A stretch of DNA of 32,000 nucleotides from NCBI GenBank assembly GCA_963675915.1, contig OY780959.1:2280001-2312000 (forward strand). Reading direction: 5' to 3'. Under the pieces are notes generated by a model. That model worked only from the letters and a program-made list of their open reading frames with translations. It was not told where the DNA came from and ran no database searches. How positions within the stretch are numbered: position 1 is the first letter of the stretch; each line of letters opens with the position of its first letter. This stretch comes from Coprobacillaceae bacterium (GTDB taxonomy: Bacteria; Bacillota_I; Bacilli_A; Erysipelotrichales; Coprobacillaceae). The position numbers were made by a program, and so were the translations under genes. Shown here piece after piece: positions 27,097-29,873 of the stretch.

Positions 27097-27145
27097 AGTT
27101 CCCTCCTCATTTACTTGCTAGTATATCTAAGTGTTGAGGGCTTGT

Positions 27146-27162
27146 ATGTGATAAAGTTACAT
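27146..27162. promoter_or_regulatory. Candidate Crp/Fnr-type operator overlapping a weak -35 of the ferredoxin operon
   Basis: ATGTGATAAAGTTACAT (TGTGA-N5-TTACA, 5 of 8 symmetric pairs). On the minus strand the downstream promoter is CATACA (27148-27143), 17-nt spacer, TATACT (27125-27120). This places the palindrome centre about 41 nt upstream of the predicted start. Confidence 0.3.
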
Positions 27163-27224
27163 AAAACGGGACGATATTCCAGTTTTGAAAAATACTTTCA
27201 AATTATGTCCAAACTAGTATAATG

Positions 27225-27253
27225 TTAATAATAGACAAACTATTAGATGTCAA
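27225..27253 (-). promoter_or_regulatory. Consensus -35 promoter reading toward the ferredoxin operon, at or near the downstream edge of the IS110-family element
   Basis: Minus strand: TTGACA (27253-27248), 17-nt spacer, TATTAA (27230-27225). Confidence 0.45.
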
Positions 27254-27301
27254 GAAGTAACTAAGTGAATATTCATTTAGGTTTTTTTGACAATTAATGG
27301 C

Positions 27302-27323
27302 CGTTTGGCTTGGTTTAGAGGTG
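27302..27323. repeat. 22-bp inverted repeat, arm 1 (3' non-coding side of the IS110-family gene)
   Basis: CGTTTGGCTTGGTTTAGAGGTG is the reverse complement of 28856-28877 with one mismatch. It also overlaps a local hairpin TAGAGG-TGAAT-CCTCTA. Confidence 0.9.
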
Positions 27324-27437
27324 AATCCTCTATAAAAATCTTGTTTTTGGATAAATTTGAGCGCACTGAAAACAACCTGCCAGATTTTAATCACTGGAAG
27401 CTCTTACATTTAATGATTCCTTATAGATTAGGCTCGC

Positions 27438-28817
27438 TTATGTTGTATAGATGAATTTATGGACTTCTCCATTTTCATCACTGTAACGATAGATTTGCCT
27501 TCTGGTCTTTAGGGGAATATGAGTAGTAATACTTTGGAAGAACGTATTTCGGGTTTCTTCCGGTAATCTCATGAGATGATCATGTTCGATTACAAATTTG
27601 CTTTGCTTCTTCATCATGGAATATATATAACGGGCAACTTTATTGGCTACTGCCACAACTGCCAATCGATGGCGTTTTTTGTTCCCGTTCTTGATCTTTT
27701 CGAAATATGCCTTGAGGACTGGATTGTGTCTTCTGGCAAATTCTCCAATCATATATATGGCATGACGAAGATATCTTGAACCTTTTTTTGAAATCTTGCC
27801 CATGATTTCAACTGAACTGCCGGAGCGCTTGTTTCTTGGGGCGAGCCCCATGTAAGAAACATATTTGTCAGCGTTTTTGAAAAGTTTGATGTCATATGTT
27901 TCGGCAATTACTGTTGCCGCTGTTACATCACCGCATCCTGTCAAAGTCTGCAGTTTATCAAACATCGGATTAGTTGAACCTAGTTCTCTAATCATCTTTT
28001 CAAGAGTTTTTATTTGTCGCTTCATATCAATGACGACTGCCGCCTGGCCCTGGATTATGGATCTGATTGACTCAGATACTTTGCGTGGAGCAAGCGAATC
28101 AAGACAAAGGTCAAACAGCTTATCTACCTTATCTGATTTGGTCCTGTTTTTCGATGCTTTTAAAACAATATCTAATACTTCTATTCTTGAAGCGTTTATG
28201 ATATCATGTGTCGTAGGATATGAAGATAAGATAGCAAGAAATGTTGCTGACTTAGGTTCGAAGACATATTGAAGTTCAGGGAAATAACGTTCGCATTGGG
28301 CAATGAGGCGGTTAATTTCTTGAGTATAAGTTTTCTTTACCTGGCCATGGCGATGCACTACTGCTTTCAAATCTGCATATCCTTTTTCATTATTTATGTT
28401 GTTTTTGTGAACATATTTAACGTCATATTCATATGCGACTATTGAAGCAATTGTCTGGGCATCCAGTGGATCAGACTTACCGATATCATGAGATTCACGC
28501 CATTTATTGACATATTGGGTGTTAAGTAGATATACATCCTCAATGTCGTTTAAAGATGAATGGATGAACTCGAAGATATTGTCGGAATAAACACCAGTGA
28601 CTTCCATTGCATAAGTCACATGGTTGCAATCTGAATCAATGTATTTTCTGACAGTGGCCAGGAAATCATTCAATTCGGATTTCAAAAACTTAAATTGAAT
28701 TCTTTTTCTCAAGAATTTAGGCTTGATATTTCTATCACGATTGACAGAAATAATAGCAGCATCGGCCTTGCCTTTAGAGACATCGATACCAACGAATAAT
28801 TCATAACTGTTATTCAT
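27438..28817 (-). CDS. IS110-family transposase/recombinase (DEDD RuvC-like N-domain + Transposase_20 C-domain), 459 aa
   Basis: FVGIDVSKGK (D), YAMEVTGVY (E), GKSDPLDAQ (D..D). C-domain LQTLTGCGDVTAATVIAE...YMGLAPRNKRSGSS...ISKKGSRYLRHAIY. RBS GAGGT 7 nt upstream of the ATG. Confidence 0.92.
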   Translation of the reverse strand: MNNSYELFVGIDVSKGKADAAIISVNRDRNIKPKFLRKRIQFKFLKSELNDFLATVRKYIDSDCNHVTYAMEVTGVYSDNIFEFIHSSLNDIEDVYLLNTQYVNKWRESHDIGKSDPLDAQTIASIVAYEYDVKYVHKNNINNEKGYADLKAVVHRHGQVKKTYTQEINRLIAQCERYFPELQYVFEPKSATFLAILSSYPTTHDIINASRIEVLDIVLKASKNRTKSDKVDKLFDLCLDSLAPRKVSESIRSIIQGQAAVVIDMKRQIKTLEKMIRELGSTNPMFDKLQTLTGCGDVTAATVIAETYDIKLFKNADKYVSYMGLAPRNKRSGSSVEIMGKISKKGSRYLRHAIYMIGEFARRHNPVLKAYFEKIKNGNKKRHRLAVVAVANKVARYIYSMMKKQSKFVIEHDHLMRLPEETRNTFFQSITTHIPLKTRRQIYRYSDENGEVHKFIYTT

Positions 28818-28855
28818 AAACTGAACCTCATTTCAATGTATTCTGTTTTGAATTG

Positions 28856-28877
28856 CACCTCTAAACCAAGACAAACG
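28856..28877. repeat. 22-bp inverted repeat, arm 2 (5' non-coding side of the IS110-family gene)
   Basis: CACCTCTAAACCAAGACAAACG, beginning 39 nt upstream of the recombinase ATG. Confidence 0.9.
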
Positions 28878-29120
28878 CAACCTCGTAAATGGGGAGACGA
28901 AGTGAAACCACAACGCTGCATCAAACTAATTCGGGTATAAAGACTGCTTGGATCAAGGATTAAGTCTACGCAAGGTGGACATCATGTGAGCCACAGGGAG
29001 GAGGAATAAAACCTTCATTCAAAACAAGTCTATTATCTTAGAAAAAGGATACTAATGCAATTCTTAAGTGAATCAATATTAATTAAGGATTACAAACATA
29101 TTATACGAGGGGGGATTACA

Positions 29121-29873
29121 ATGAAAGCAGTATTTTTTGATATTGATGGGACGCTGGTCAGTCATGGAGACCGGATCATGCCCGAAAGTACCAAATTGGC
29201 TTTGAAAAAGTTGAAAGAACAGAACATCATGGTGTTCATCGCTACGGGGCGGCCGCACAGTTCGGCGGTTTTCATGAATGAATATTTCGAATTCGATGGT
29301 TATGTATGCAATAACGGCACGAATGGAGTGTTCAGGTGTCAGCAGATTATTGACATTCAGATACCTAATGAATCACTGGAAGTCATGATTGAATATGTGC
29401 GCTCGAAAAAACTTAAAGTGGGGATTTCGACTGATGTTGAAGTCTATTATGGCGGAGTTGACGGAGTTTTATACGATGACAATATGCCCGTCCGACCGAT
29501 TGAGCAGTGTCTTGATGACAAGATATATCAGGTGAATCTATATGCGCCACCAGAAGCGGATGATGAATTCCTTCATCATTTGCCCAATAGCAAGTCAGTC
29601 CGGTGGACTGACCGCTTTGCCGATATCATCTCGGTTGAAGGTGGTAAGGAAGTGGGAATCCGCAAGTTCTTGGGACTGTTGGGAATCGAGGAAAGCGAAA
29701 TCGCCGTTTTTGGCGATGGCGAAAACGACCTGACGATGCTTAAAGCCTTCAAAAATTCGGTGGCCATGGGAAATGCTAATGATATCGTCAAGGAGAATGC
29801 CAGCTTTGTGACTGACCACATTCTTGAAGATGGGATCTACAATGCCTTGAAGAAATTCAAAGTAATCGAATAA
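29121..29873 (+). CDS. Cof-type HAD-IIB family hydrolase (sugar-phosphate phosphatase-like)
   Basis: MKAVFFDIDGTL (motif I), IATGR (motif II), GDGENDLTM (motif IV). G-rich RBS GAGGGGGG before the ATG at 29121. The track start at 29055 has no RBS. Confidence 0.88.
   Translation: MKAVFFDIDGTLVSHGDRIMPESTKLALKKLKEQNIMVFIATGRPHSSAVFMNEYFEFDGYVCNNGTNGVFRCQQIIDIQIPNESLEVMIEYVRSKKLKVGISTDVEVYYGGVDGVLYDDNMPVRPIEQCLDDKIYQVNLYAPPEADDEFLHHLPNSKSVRWTDRFADIISVEGGKEVGIRKFLGLLGIEESEIAVFGDGENDLTMLKAFKNSVAMGNANDIVKENASFVTDHILEDGIYNALKKFKVIE

What the first reader, a model, noticed from the sequence alone, without database searches (positions are those of the whole stretch)
27302..28877. 22-bp inverted repeat linking the 5' and 3' non-coding regions of the IS110-family element
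CGTTTGGCTTGGTTTAGAGGTG (27302-27323) and CACCTCTAAACCAAGACAAACG (28856-28877) are reverse complements with a single mismatch. A match of this length should not arise by chance within 1.6 kb. Classical IS110-group elements lack terminal IRs, and IS1111-group elements have only short sub-terminal IRs, as far as I recall about 7-17 bp. A 22-bp pair is therefore unusual. I see three readings. (a) They are long sub-terminal IRs, giving an element of ~1.58 kb. (b) The IS inserted into the centre of a pre-existing 22-bp-arm palindrome. (c) They form a long-range 5'UTR-3'UTR RNA duplex, or a segment of a guide RNA complementary to the opposite end. The 3' arm can also fold locally (TAGAGG-TGAAT-CCTCTA), so alternative pairing is possible.
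Basis: seen in the sequence. Interest (0 to 1): 0.6.

Follow-up and report, generated by a model that had tools for sequence, protein, structure and literature searches.

The report
Conserved pairing between IS110 ends
The 22-base inverted repeat is real and conserved, but it lies well inside a 1.87-kb RNA-guided jumping gene: one arm is the tail of the element's bridge (guide) RNA and the other sits past the transposase gene, so the two most likely pair as nucleic-acid strands to control or process the guide RNA, a feature I did not find described for this family in the papers searched.

Summary
The repeat (27302-27323 / 28856-28877, 21 of 22) is confirmed. It occurs only inside the two copies of one IS110-family element in this genome. 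The true element is 27233-29109, with the transposase on the minus strand. The arms lie 68 and about 230 nt inside the ends, so they are not terminal or sub-terminal repeats and not a split host palindrome. A related genome has the same site empty, with no palindrome. The left end encodes a canonical bridge RNA whose guides covary with target and donor. The upstream arm lies inside that RNA, between the right donor guide and the closing helix. The downstream arm lies after a terminator-like hairpin in an unusually long right end. In 24 of 25 distinct relatives (40-100% protein identity) the arms stay complementary: 93.7% of cells pair, and 6 of 22 pairs changed on both sides. Twenty-five other IS110-family elements showed no repeat of this kind. 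Best reading: a conserved long-range duplex, most likely RNA-RNA on sense transcripts, that remodels or processes the bridge RNA. A stem in the single-stranded DNA circle intermediate is a serious rival. The function is inferred, not shown. An earlier report of this scan had already called this element's other copy an SD-targeting bridge-RNA IS.

The parts
27233..29109 (-). Whole IS110-group element (1873 bp plus the CT core dinucleotide on each side)
   Evidence: The two genomic copies are identical, apart from 2 mismatches, exactly over 27232-29109. The ends are conserved in all relatives.
27233..27234 (-). Core CT at the right-end junction
   Evidence: CT is found at both junctions of every copy examined.
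27248..27253 (-). Outward -35 box TTGACA at the right end
   Evidence: With 13 nt, CT and CG it gives TTGACA-N17-TATAAT across the circle junction. It is invariant in the clade.
27302..27323 (-). Downstream (right-end) arm, CACCTCTAAACCAAGCCAAACG on the transposase strand
   Evidence: present in 24 of 25 complete relatives and in all partial loci with a recognisable right end.
27316..27332 (-). Small local hairpin that sequesters the 5' part of the right-end arm and leaves AAACCAAGCCAAACG single-stranded
27369..27401 (-). Terminator-like hairpin plus U tract between the stop codon and the right-end arm
   Evidence: The stem sequence differs between relatives while pairing is kept, and TTGTTTT follows.
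27438..28817 (-). IS110-family DEDD/Ser recombinase gene, 459 aa
   Evidence: PF01548, PF02371; NF033542 193 bits against a cut-off of 140.
28825..28829 (-). Shine-Dalgarno GAGGT of the recombinase gene; it is not part of the arm
28838..28853 (-). 3' strands of the closing helices P1 (28838-28843) and P2 (28845-28853) of the bridge RNA
   Evidence: RNAalifold; P2 has two-sided changes in the 40% clade.
28856..28877 (-). Upstream arm, CGTTTGTCTTGGTTTAGAGGTG, inside the bridge RNA between RDG and P2
   Evidence: it is the most conserved block of the left end.
28882..28891 (-). Right donor guide (RDG) CATTTACGAG, complementary to CT-CGTA(T)AAT at the left end
   Evidence: L071 has TGAG where its left end is CT-CA.
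28893..28919 (-). Apical hairpin of the donor-binding loop
   Evidence: (alignments): my reading is that CA/TG in most elements becomes CG/CG in OWN and L003. Neither RNAalifold run predicted this hairpin.
28922..28927 (-). Left donor guide (LDG) AGTTTG, same sense as the right-end terminus AGTTTGT-CT
   Evidence: It is AGTTAG in the L008/L049/L091/L098 group, whose right end is AGTTAGG-CT.
28966..29006 (-). Target-binding loop: RTG (28966-28971), apical hairpin (28975-28994), LTG TTCCTCCTCCC (28996-29006)
   Evidence: The LTG matches the target consensus in families with many copies: L055 TTCCTCCT and L033 AATCTCCT.
29017..29025 (-). P2 5' strand GTTTTGAAT
29088..29093 (-). P1 5' strand GTAATC, near the predicted transcript start
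29100..29105 (-). -10 box TATAAT at the left end
29108..29109 (-). Core CT at the left-end junction

Best explanation
The two arms are a conserved long-range pairing module of a clade of IS110-group, bridge-RNA-guided insertion sequences from gut Erysipelotrichales. The upstream arm is part of the bridge RNA itself. It is the nearly invariant segment between the right donor guide and the 3' strand of the helix that closes the RNA. The downstream arm lies in the unusually long right end, about 115 nt past the stop codon and just beyond a leaky-looking terminator. I propose that the downstream arm is transcribed on the transposase strand, by read-through of that terminator on the integrated copy or on the excised circle. 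It would then anneal to the upstream arm, either in cis (5' leader to 3' tail) or in trans (another copy's bridge RNA). The resulting 19-22-bp RNA duplex crosses the closing helices P1/P2, so it cannot nest with them. It should therefore unfold or lock the donor-binding end of the bridge RNA, and it is long enough to be an RNase III substrate. The net effect would be to inactivate or process the bridge RNA/transposase transcript, which is a self-limiting 'anti-bridge' control. Shown: the arms, their position inside the element and inside the bridge RNA, and their conservation and covariation. Inferred: that the pairing happens in RNA, and its regulatory consequence.
For: (1) The arms are internal. 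The two genomic copies and about 40 insertions of relatives define the ends. (2) Complementarity is kept in 24 of 25 distinct elements down to 40% recombinase identity, at the same positions: 32-54 nt before the start codon and 101-124 nt after the stop. Of the cells, 93.7% form standard pairs, and 6 of 22 pairs changed on both sides. None of 500 column shuffles reached the observed covariation or percentage paired, and slid registers gave 35-50%. One pair shows the series U-A, U.G, C-G (L008, L091, L098). (3) The left end is a bridge RNA. Helices P2 and the TBL stems covary, and LTG, LDG and RDG covary with target and termini. The upstream arm sits inside it, and its only local alternative, a weak hairpin, has no two-sided covariation. 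(4) RNA duplex energy is -30 to -46 kcal/mol against -9 to -15 for shuffles. In minimum-energy folds of the full 1.8-kb transcript the arms pair in 6 of 6 diverse elements. (5) Both arms lie on the same strand in the transcription direction, and there are 38 G.U cells against 3 A.C cells on the sense strand. (6) There is no protein-coding explanation: reading frames across the arm differ between relatives. (7) 5'-3' UTR pairing that controls translation or decay is known in Firmicutes (icaR PMC3868564; hbs PMC5737220).
Against: A conserved terminator-like hairpin lies between the stop codon and the downstream arm, so most transposase transcripts may never contain that arm. I found no convincing promoter for a separate right-end RNA (and inspection). 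The excess of G.U over A.C is confounded, because the invariant upstream arm is G/U-rich, so any transition in its partner gives a wobble. One relative (L094) keeps the upstream arm but has no downstream arm, so the pairing is dispensable at least there. The duplex does not cover the recombinase Shine-Dalgarno. No transcript data were available.
Confidence: 0.45

Rival explanations
1. The arms pair in DNA, not RNA. They form a 22-bp stem in the single-stranded (top-strand) circular transposition intermediate. This splits the circle into a 1.5-kb loop (the recombinase gene) and a loop of about 300 nt that holds the right end, the junction and the bridge-RNA gene. The stem would help stabilise the circle or convert it to double-stranded DNA, a role like a single-strand origin.
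For: Two preprints report that IS621 and CazIS110 excise mainly one strand and release an ssDNA circle that the host must convert to dsDNA (10.64898/2026.08.31.748434; 10.1101/2025.10.25.684509). Both arms are on one strand. DNA-parameter duplex energies are -18 to -28 kcal/mol against -6 to -8.5 for shuffles in all 24 elements. This reading needs no transcription across the terminator-like hairpin that precedes the downstream arm. The covariation fits DNA pairing as well as RNA pairing.
Against: Elements with up to 5 G.T in 22 pairs are the weakest as DNA but not as RNA. A plain 22-bp stem has no resemblance to known single-strand origins that I could see. Single-strand excision has been shown only for distant relatives. 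The upstream arm is constrained as part of an RNA.
Confidence: 0.22
2. The upstream arm is a third, long guide of the bridge RNA. It base-pairs with the top DNA strand of its own right end, 68-90 bp from the crossover site, and so anchors the recombinase-RNA complex to the donor.
For: The arm lies directly 3' of the right donor guide within the bridge RNA. The complementarity, including rG.dT wobbles, fits RNA-DNA pairing equally well. The arm also contains GTTTGTCT, identical to the right-end terminus plus core in most elements.
Against: Known IS110 guides are 4-9 nt and lie in internal loops next to the core (PMC11208160). Opening 22 bp of duplex DNA 68 bp from the crossover has no known basis in the solved complexes. 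The arm does not follow the changed terminus GTTAGG-CT of the L008 group. L094 lacks the site.
Confidence: 0.1
3. The arms are two inverted binding sites on double-stranded DNA for the recombinase or a host protein, or an evolutionary relic of an inverted duplication with no present function.
For: An inverted repeat with parallel changes in both arms is also what co-evolving protein sites would show.
Against: IS110 recombinases read DNA through the bridge RNA, not through repeats (PMC11208160). The arms sit at very different distances from the ends (68 against about 230 nt). The free variation at column 122 (G, A or C), often matched in the partner, and the U-A, U.G, C-G series are typical of base pairing, not of protein recognition. 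A relic would not stay 94% paired across elements whose recombinases are only 40% identical, while the rest of the right end diverges.
Confidence: 0.08
4. The arms are sub-terminal inverted repeats (IS1111 type), or the halves of a host palindrome split by the insertion.
For: Only the first impression of a long inverted repeat flanking the recombinase gene.
Against: The element ends are 68 and about 230 nt outside the arms. sTIRs lie 3-7 bp from the ends. The genome has no solo copies. The orthologous empty site has no palindrome. Both arms are carried into unrelated sites in many genomes.
Confidence: 0.01

Closest known systems
IS621 / IS110-group bridge RNA elements (Durrant et al. 2024, PMC11208160; Hiraizumi et al. 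2024, PMC11208158)
   Same: It has a DEDD plus Ser recombinase and a CT core. A consensus promoter is rebuilt across the circle junction. The left-end non-coding RNA has a target-binding loop followed by a donor-binding loop. LTG and LDG are in the sense of the top strand, and RTG and RDG are complementary to it.
   Different: The recombinase is about 460 aa. The right end is about 200 nt, where the IS110 group normally has a short one. The bridge RNA is about 255 nt, closed by two long-range helices, and carries an extra, nearly invariant 22-nt segment after the RDG. That segment has a conserved complement in the right end. No comparable repeat turned up in 25 other IS110-family elements of the phylum or in the papers I searched.
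IS1111-group sub-terminal inverted repeats (Partridge and Hall 2003; Siddiquee et al. 2024, PMC11187229)
   Same: An inverted repeat inside an IS110-family element, one arm near each non-coding end.
   Different: sTIRs are 11-13 bp, lie 7 and 3 bp from the ends, and flank the donor core. Here the arms are 22 nt and lie about 230 and 68 nt from the ends. The element has its guide RNA upstream of the gene, as in the IS110 group. A separate, imperfect 10-bp repeat (ACATnTAATA / TATAATATGT) occupies the true sub-terminal position.
5'UTR-3'UTR pairing in Firmicutes mRNAs: icaR of S. aureus (PMC3868564) and hbs of B. subtilis (PMC5737220)
   Same: Complementary segments lie before and after one coding region on the same strand. 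In icaR the 3' segment is C-rich and anti-SD-like and the duplex is cut by RNase III. Here the downstream arm starts with CACCUCU and pairs with AGAGGUG.
   Different: Here the 5' partner is not the gene's own ribosome-binding site but part of a guide RNA. A terminator-like hairpin separates the gene from the 3' partner. Nothing has been tested experimentally.
ISPpu9 regulation by the small RNAs Asr9 and Ssr9 (PMC8450116)
   Same: An IS110-family element in which sequence downstream of the transposase gene is related to the 5' leader and takes part in RNA-RNA pairing that tunes transposase expression.
   Different: In ISPpu9 the downstream RNA resembles the leader and titrates an antisense RNA. 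Here the downstream segment is directly complementary to the leader on the same strand, and no antisense RNA gene is evident.

Membership tests
IS110 family (DEDD/Ser recombinase insertion sequences) | Recombinase with an N-terminal DEDD RuvC-like domain and a C-terminal Tnp domain | tested here: met
   PF01548 (E 3e-16) and PF02371 (E 6e-23). NF033542 scores 193 bits against a cut-off of 140.
IS110 group (bridge RNA in the left end) | Structured non-coding RNA upstream of the recombinase gene, with target and donor guides that match the insertion site and the element termini | tested here: met
   Covarying helices. LTG matches the target consensus in two multi-copy families. LDG and RDG change together with the termini in the L008 group and in L071.
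IS110 group (bridge RNA in the left end) | Promoter rebuilt across the right-end/left-end junction of the circle; scarless insertion with a shared core dinucleotide | tested here: met
   TTGACA-N17-TATAAT results from joining 27253..27235, CT, CG and 29105..29100. CT is found at both junctions of all copies. The circle itself was not observed.
IS110 group (bridge RNA in the left end) | Long left end and short right end | tested here: not met
   The left end is 290 nt and the right end 203 nt (175-244 nt in relatives). The right end is long. Siddiquee et al. list 26 of about 350 IS with two long non-coding regions.
IS1111 group | Sub-terminal inverted repeats of 11-13 bp lying 6-7 bp and 3 bp from the ends | tested here: not met
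   The arms lie about 230 and 68 nt from the ends.
IS1111 group | Guide (seek/bridge) RNA downstream of the recombinase gene | tested here: not met
   All four guides lie in the left end. The right end holds only the terminator-like hairpin, the arm and the -35 box.
icaR-type 5'UTR-3'UTR mRNA pairing | The 3'UTR segment pairs with the Shine-Dalgarno region of the same mRNA | tested here: not met
   The recombinase SD (28825-28829) lies 26 nt downstream of the arm and is not part of the duplex.
icaR-type 5'UTR-3'UTR mRNA pairing | Both segments are present on one transcript, and the duplex is cleaved by RNase III | not testable with these tools
   No transcript data. A terminator-like hairpin lies between the gene and the downstream arm.
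Known RNA families (Rfam 15) | Match to a curated covariance model | tested here: not met
   cmscan of 27100-29250 at E up to 10 gave only three chance-level hits, all far below their gathering scores.
Single-strand origins of rolling-circle replicons | Long imperfect palindrome with conserved RNA-polymerase binding and termination motifs | not tested
   No model was available. Considered only as a functional analogy for the ssDNA-circle rival.

The most novel reading that the evidence does not exclude
The right end of this IS clade encodes a dedicated partner strand for the bridge RNA. One possibility is an 'anti-bridge' RNA that switches off or triggers processing of the guide RNA, giving a built-in copy-number or activity control for an RNA-guided recombinase. 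The other is a stem that organises the single-stranded circle intermediate. Either would be a third, conserved base-pairing module in bridge-RNA systems, besides the target and donor loops.
Probability: 0.4. Interest if true: 0.75.

Novelty: new variant of a known kind. Interest (0 to 1): 0.55.

Why it matters
Bridge-RNA recombinases are being developed as programmable genome-writing tools. How the natural elements limit their own activity, mature the guide RNA out of the guide-plus-transposase transcript, or handle the single-stranded circle is still open. This clade offers a clean, testable module: 22 nt in the guide RNA and 22 nt in the right end, with a natural variant (L094) that lacks the second arm. 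If the pairing silences or processes the bridge RNA, it would be a natural off-switch that could be transplanted. If it acts in the DNA circle, it bears on the copy-and-paste model. At the least, the finding corrects the boundaries of the element and shows that a long inverted repeat in an IS110 element need not mark its ends.

Tried and rejected
(1) Rfam scan of the element: nothing above chance. (2) Promoter scan for a separate right-end RNA or an antisense RNA: only weak 9-of-12 matches, fewer than in shuffles. The one candidate antisense promoter inside the recombinase 5' coding region is not conserved in relatives (inspection). (3) The upstream arm as the left donor guide. It contains GTTTGTCT, identical to the right-end terminus plus core. 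I rejected this because the L008/L049/L091/L098 group changed its terminus to GTTAGG-CT and its real LDG to AGTTAG while the arm stayed the same. (4) A local closing stem GAATT/AATTC for the donor loop. RNAalifold instead pairs AUUCAAAAC with GUUUUGAAU upstream of the target loop. (5) A small antisense ORF over the right end (55 aa in the window; a 47-aa gene was called in L033). Frames and peptides are not conserved. (6) Strand assignment from the G.U against A.C asymmetry. It favours the sense strand 38 to 3 but is confounded by the G/U-rich, invariant upstream arm. (7) RNA against DNA pairing from duplex energies. Both are far above shuffles, so this does not decide. (8) Constrained folding to measure competition with P1/P2. 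My constraint missed part of the arm and single-sequence folds did not recover P2, so I make no claim. (9) A survey of 25 other IS110-family elements found only guide-to-target matches, such as GAGGTGAC against GTCACCTC at the right-end junction of L108/L112/L129, and no internal repeat of this kind.
Full report
OBSERVATION. Arms 27302-27323 and 28856-28877 are 22 nt long and complementary at 21 of 22 positions. The local hairpin at 27316-27332 is also present. A 459-aa ORF on the minus strand (27438-28817) lies between the arms. It is an IS110-family recombinase: PF01548 and PF02371, and NF033542 at 193 bits against a cut-off of 140. A genome-wide search for the arm with up to three mismatches finds four sites only, two arms in each of two element copies.

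TRUE BOUNDARIES. The genome (one contig, 2.63 Mb) holds a second copy. Walking the pairwise alignment outwards shows identity from 27232 to 29109 with two mismatches, and unrelated sequence beyond. In transposase orientation the left end begins CT-CGTATAATATG and the right end finishes TTGACATCTAATAGTTTGT-CT. I fetched about 40 insertions of relatives from public genomes and metagenomes. The same termini recur, and the flanks diverge exactly at the CT. Joining right end to left end gives TTGACA-N17-TATAAT, the circle-junction promoter typical of IS110 elements (PMC11208160). The element is therefore 1.87 kb, and the arms lie 68 nt from the right end and about 230 nt from the left end. This rules out terminal and sub-terminal repeats; IS1111 sTIRs lie 3-7 bp from the ends (PMC11187229). 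It also rules out an interrupted host palindrome. As a further check, a same-genus genome carries the orthologous ferredoxin/HAD-hydrolase intergenic region without the element. That region reads TATAAT...AG-GAGG...ATG with no palindrome.

WHAT THE LEFT END IS. I aligned the left ends of 20 distinct elements, whose recombinases are 40-100% identical, and folded the alignment with RNAalifold. The result is a bridge RNA of about 255 nt. Two long-range helices close it: P1 GUAAUC/GAUUAC and P2 GUUUUGAAU/AUUCAAAAC. P2 becomes GUUCUGGA/UCCAGAAC in the 40% clade. Inside lie a target-binding loop and then a donor-binding loop. The guides follow the rules of Durrant et al..
- The LTG equals the left target plus core. 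In L055 it is TTCCTCCT and its six sites read TTCCTCCT; in L033 it is AATCTCCT and its sites read AATCTCCT.
- The LDG AGTTTG equals the right-end terminus AGTTTGT-CT. It becomes AGTTAG in the group whose terminus is AGTTAGG-CT.
- The RDG ...ACGAG is complementary to CT-CGT. It becomes ...TGAG in L071, whose left end starts CT-CA.
The upstream arm lies directly after the RDG and 2 nt before the 3' strand of P2 (5 nt before the pairs that RNAalifold predicts). It is the most conserved block of the whole left end. Its only local pairing option is a weak hairpin rich in G.U, and no pair of that hairpin changes on both sides.

WHAT THE RIGHT END HOLDS. After the stop codon comes a hairpin followed by a U tract (27401-27369). 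Its stem sequence differs among relatives while pairing is kept. I read it as a Rho-independent terminator of moderate strength. About 40 nt further on is the downstream arm, with its 5' part caught in a small hairpin and its 3' part free. Then come 50-110 poorly conserved nucleotides and the invariant -35 box and terminus. A right end of 175-244 nt is unusual for the IS110 group, whose right ends are short.

CONSERVATION OF THE PAIRING. In every full-length relative but one, the best complementarity between the 330 nt upstream and the 260 nt downstream of the gene is this same pair of segments, at the same distances. I aligned 25 elements over their whole length (A2) and scored the 22 pairs.
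- In 24 elements, 93.7% of cells form standard pairs.
- Six pairs changed on both sides: columns 111, 119, 122, 123, 124 and 125.
- None of 500 column shuffles reaches the observed covariation (0.232 against 0.147) or the observed percentage paired.
- Sliding the partner by 1-3 columns drops pairing to 35-50%.
- Column 119 shows the series U-A (L008), U.G (L091), C-G (L098).
- Column 122 is G-C, A-U or C-G in different lineages, though it is mismatched in several others.
The downstream arm is also present in all partial or decayed copies that keep a right end. The exception is L094 (58% identity). It keeps the upstream arm unchanged, but its right end has a different sequence with no complementarity above shuffles. 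The upstream arm therefore has a role of its own in the bridge RNA, and the partner is an accessory that can be lost.

SPECIFICITY TO THE CLADE. I took 25 other IS110-family elements from 150 genomes of the phylum. In most, the best upstream/downstream complementarity was no better than in shuffles. The few exceptions were guide-to-target matches at the element junction or unexamined. Rfam has no model for any part of the element.

MECHANISM. Selection on complementarity is well supported. Which molecules pair is not settled. Both arms lie on the transposase strand, so they can meet in a sense transcript or in the top DNA strand. Four observations favour RNA.
- The upstream arm is certainly transcribed, being part of the bridge RNA driven by the junction promoter.
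- The helix tolerates many G.U pairs, up to 5 of 22, without loss of predicted RNA stability.
- In minimum-energy folds of the whole 1.8-kb transcript the arms pair in six of six diverse elements.
- Comparable 5'-3' UTR pairings regulate Firmicutes mRNAs (PMC3868564, PMC5737220).
The order of segments along the RNA is P1, P2, loops, arm, P2', P1', gene, arm'. The long duplex therefore crosses P1 and P2. Unless a large pseudoknot forms, annealing of the right-end arm must open the helices that close the bridge RNA next to the donor loop. This is an inference from topology. I therefore propose that right-end transcripts, made by read-through of the terminator on the chromosome or on the circle, act as an anti-bridge strand in cis or in trans. 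They would inactivate the bridge RNA or create an RNase III site that separates or destroys the guide/transposase transcript.
The main difficulty is the terminator-like hairpin upstream of the arm, together with the lack of any visible promoter for a separate RNA. That difficulty, and recent reports that IS621 and CazIS110 excise as single-stranded circles, make a DNA stem in the single-stranded intermediate a serious rival. The covariation and the energies do not separate the two. A third possibility is that the arm acts as an extra-long guide for right-end DNA. It cannot be excluded, but it has no structural precedent, and the arm did not follow the changed terminus in the L008 group.

COMPARISON AND NOVELTY. 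The element is a member of the IS110 group of bridge-RNA insertion sequences. An earlier report of this scan reached the same view of the other copy. What is new is the conserved 22-nt pairing between the tail of the bridge RNA and an extended right end. I found no description of this in the bridge-RNA, seekRNA or ISPpu9 papers searched. ISPpu9 is the nearest precedent for right-end sequence related to the leader, but its logic differs: there a sense RNA titrates an antisense RNA. I class the finding as a new variant of a known kind, of moderate interest. The structure is solid and the function is open.

Noticed in passing
window 27222-27234 and 29108-29123; loci L030-L060: The whole clade inserts into Shine-Dalgarno regions in one orientation. 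The target on the transposase strand is ..(A/T)(T/C)CCTC-CT-(T/A)T.., the reverse complement of AAAGGAGG, and the host gene's start codon lies 6-9 nt from the left end in most copies. The element thus lands between a host promoter and its ribosome-binding site, leaves AG-GAGG attached to the gene, and receives the displaced host promoter pointing into its right end in antisense.
   Followed up: partly
window 27218-27223 and 29121-29123: In the window, the HAD-family hydrolase gene (true ATG at 29121; the mechanical ORF from 29055 starts inside the IS) has been cut off from a likely promoter -10 (TATAAT at 27218-27223) by the 1.87-kb insertion. The same-genus genome G035 has the uninterrupted arrangement.
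   Followed up: partly
window 28996-29006 compared with 29110-29120; second copy at G000:C1:511348-513171: The left target guide of this element (TTCCTCCTCCC) matches its two resident sites only imperfectly (AATCCCCC-CT and TACCTCCT-CT). The right target guide (GCGTAG) matches only CT-A of either site. An earlier report of the scan noted the same for the other copy.
   Followed up: partly
window 27239-27248 and 29096-29105: An imperfect 10-bp inverted repeat (ACATCTAATA / TATAATATGT, 8 of 10) flanks the donor core at the true termini and overlaps the -35 and -10 boxes. This is the position of the short STIR described for IS110 elements. In a single-stranded circle it would display GTTTGT-CT-CG in a hairpin loop.
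   Followed up: no
L094:1559-1757: A natural variant (recombinase 58% identical) keeps the upstream arm and the terminator-like hairpin but lacks the right-end arm. A different AT-rich palindrome sits upstream of where the arm would be. Its terminus is AGTTTGG-CT while its LDG is still AGTTTG.
   Followed up: partly
L045, right-end junction: In one insertion the 12 nt AATAGTTTGTCT at the right end is directly repeated in the flank (..TAATAGTTTGTCTAATAGTTTGTCTAATA). This may be a footprint of an earlier copy or of recombination at a donor-like half site.
   Followed up: no
window 27441-27611; alignment A1: The C-terminal extension of about 55 aa in the recombinase is shared by the whole clade (459-473 aa) and holds invariant residues (for example L418, E420, T422, F426, F427, Y443, D447, F455). 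It co-occurs with the extra bridge-RNA segment and the long right end, so it may bind one of them.
   Followed up: no
G000:C1:1039244-1040380, 1653196-1654332, 467020-468156, 124216-125391: The same genome carries at least two other kinds of IS110-family element: three copies with an open frame of 412 aa and one of 403 aa.
   Followed up: no
L108, L112, L129: A different IS110 lineage (386-aa recombinase) with a similar right end (TTGACTTTTAATAGTTAGT) also sits next to CACCTC. Its left end carries GAGGTGAC, which looks like a right target guide for ribosome-binding-site-like sequence.
   Followed up: no
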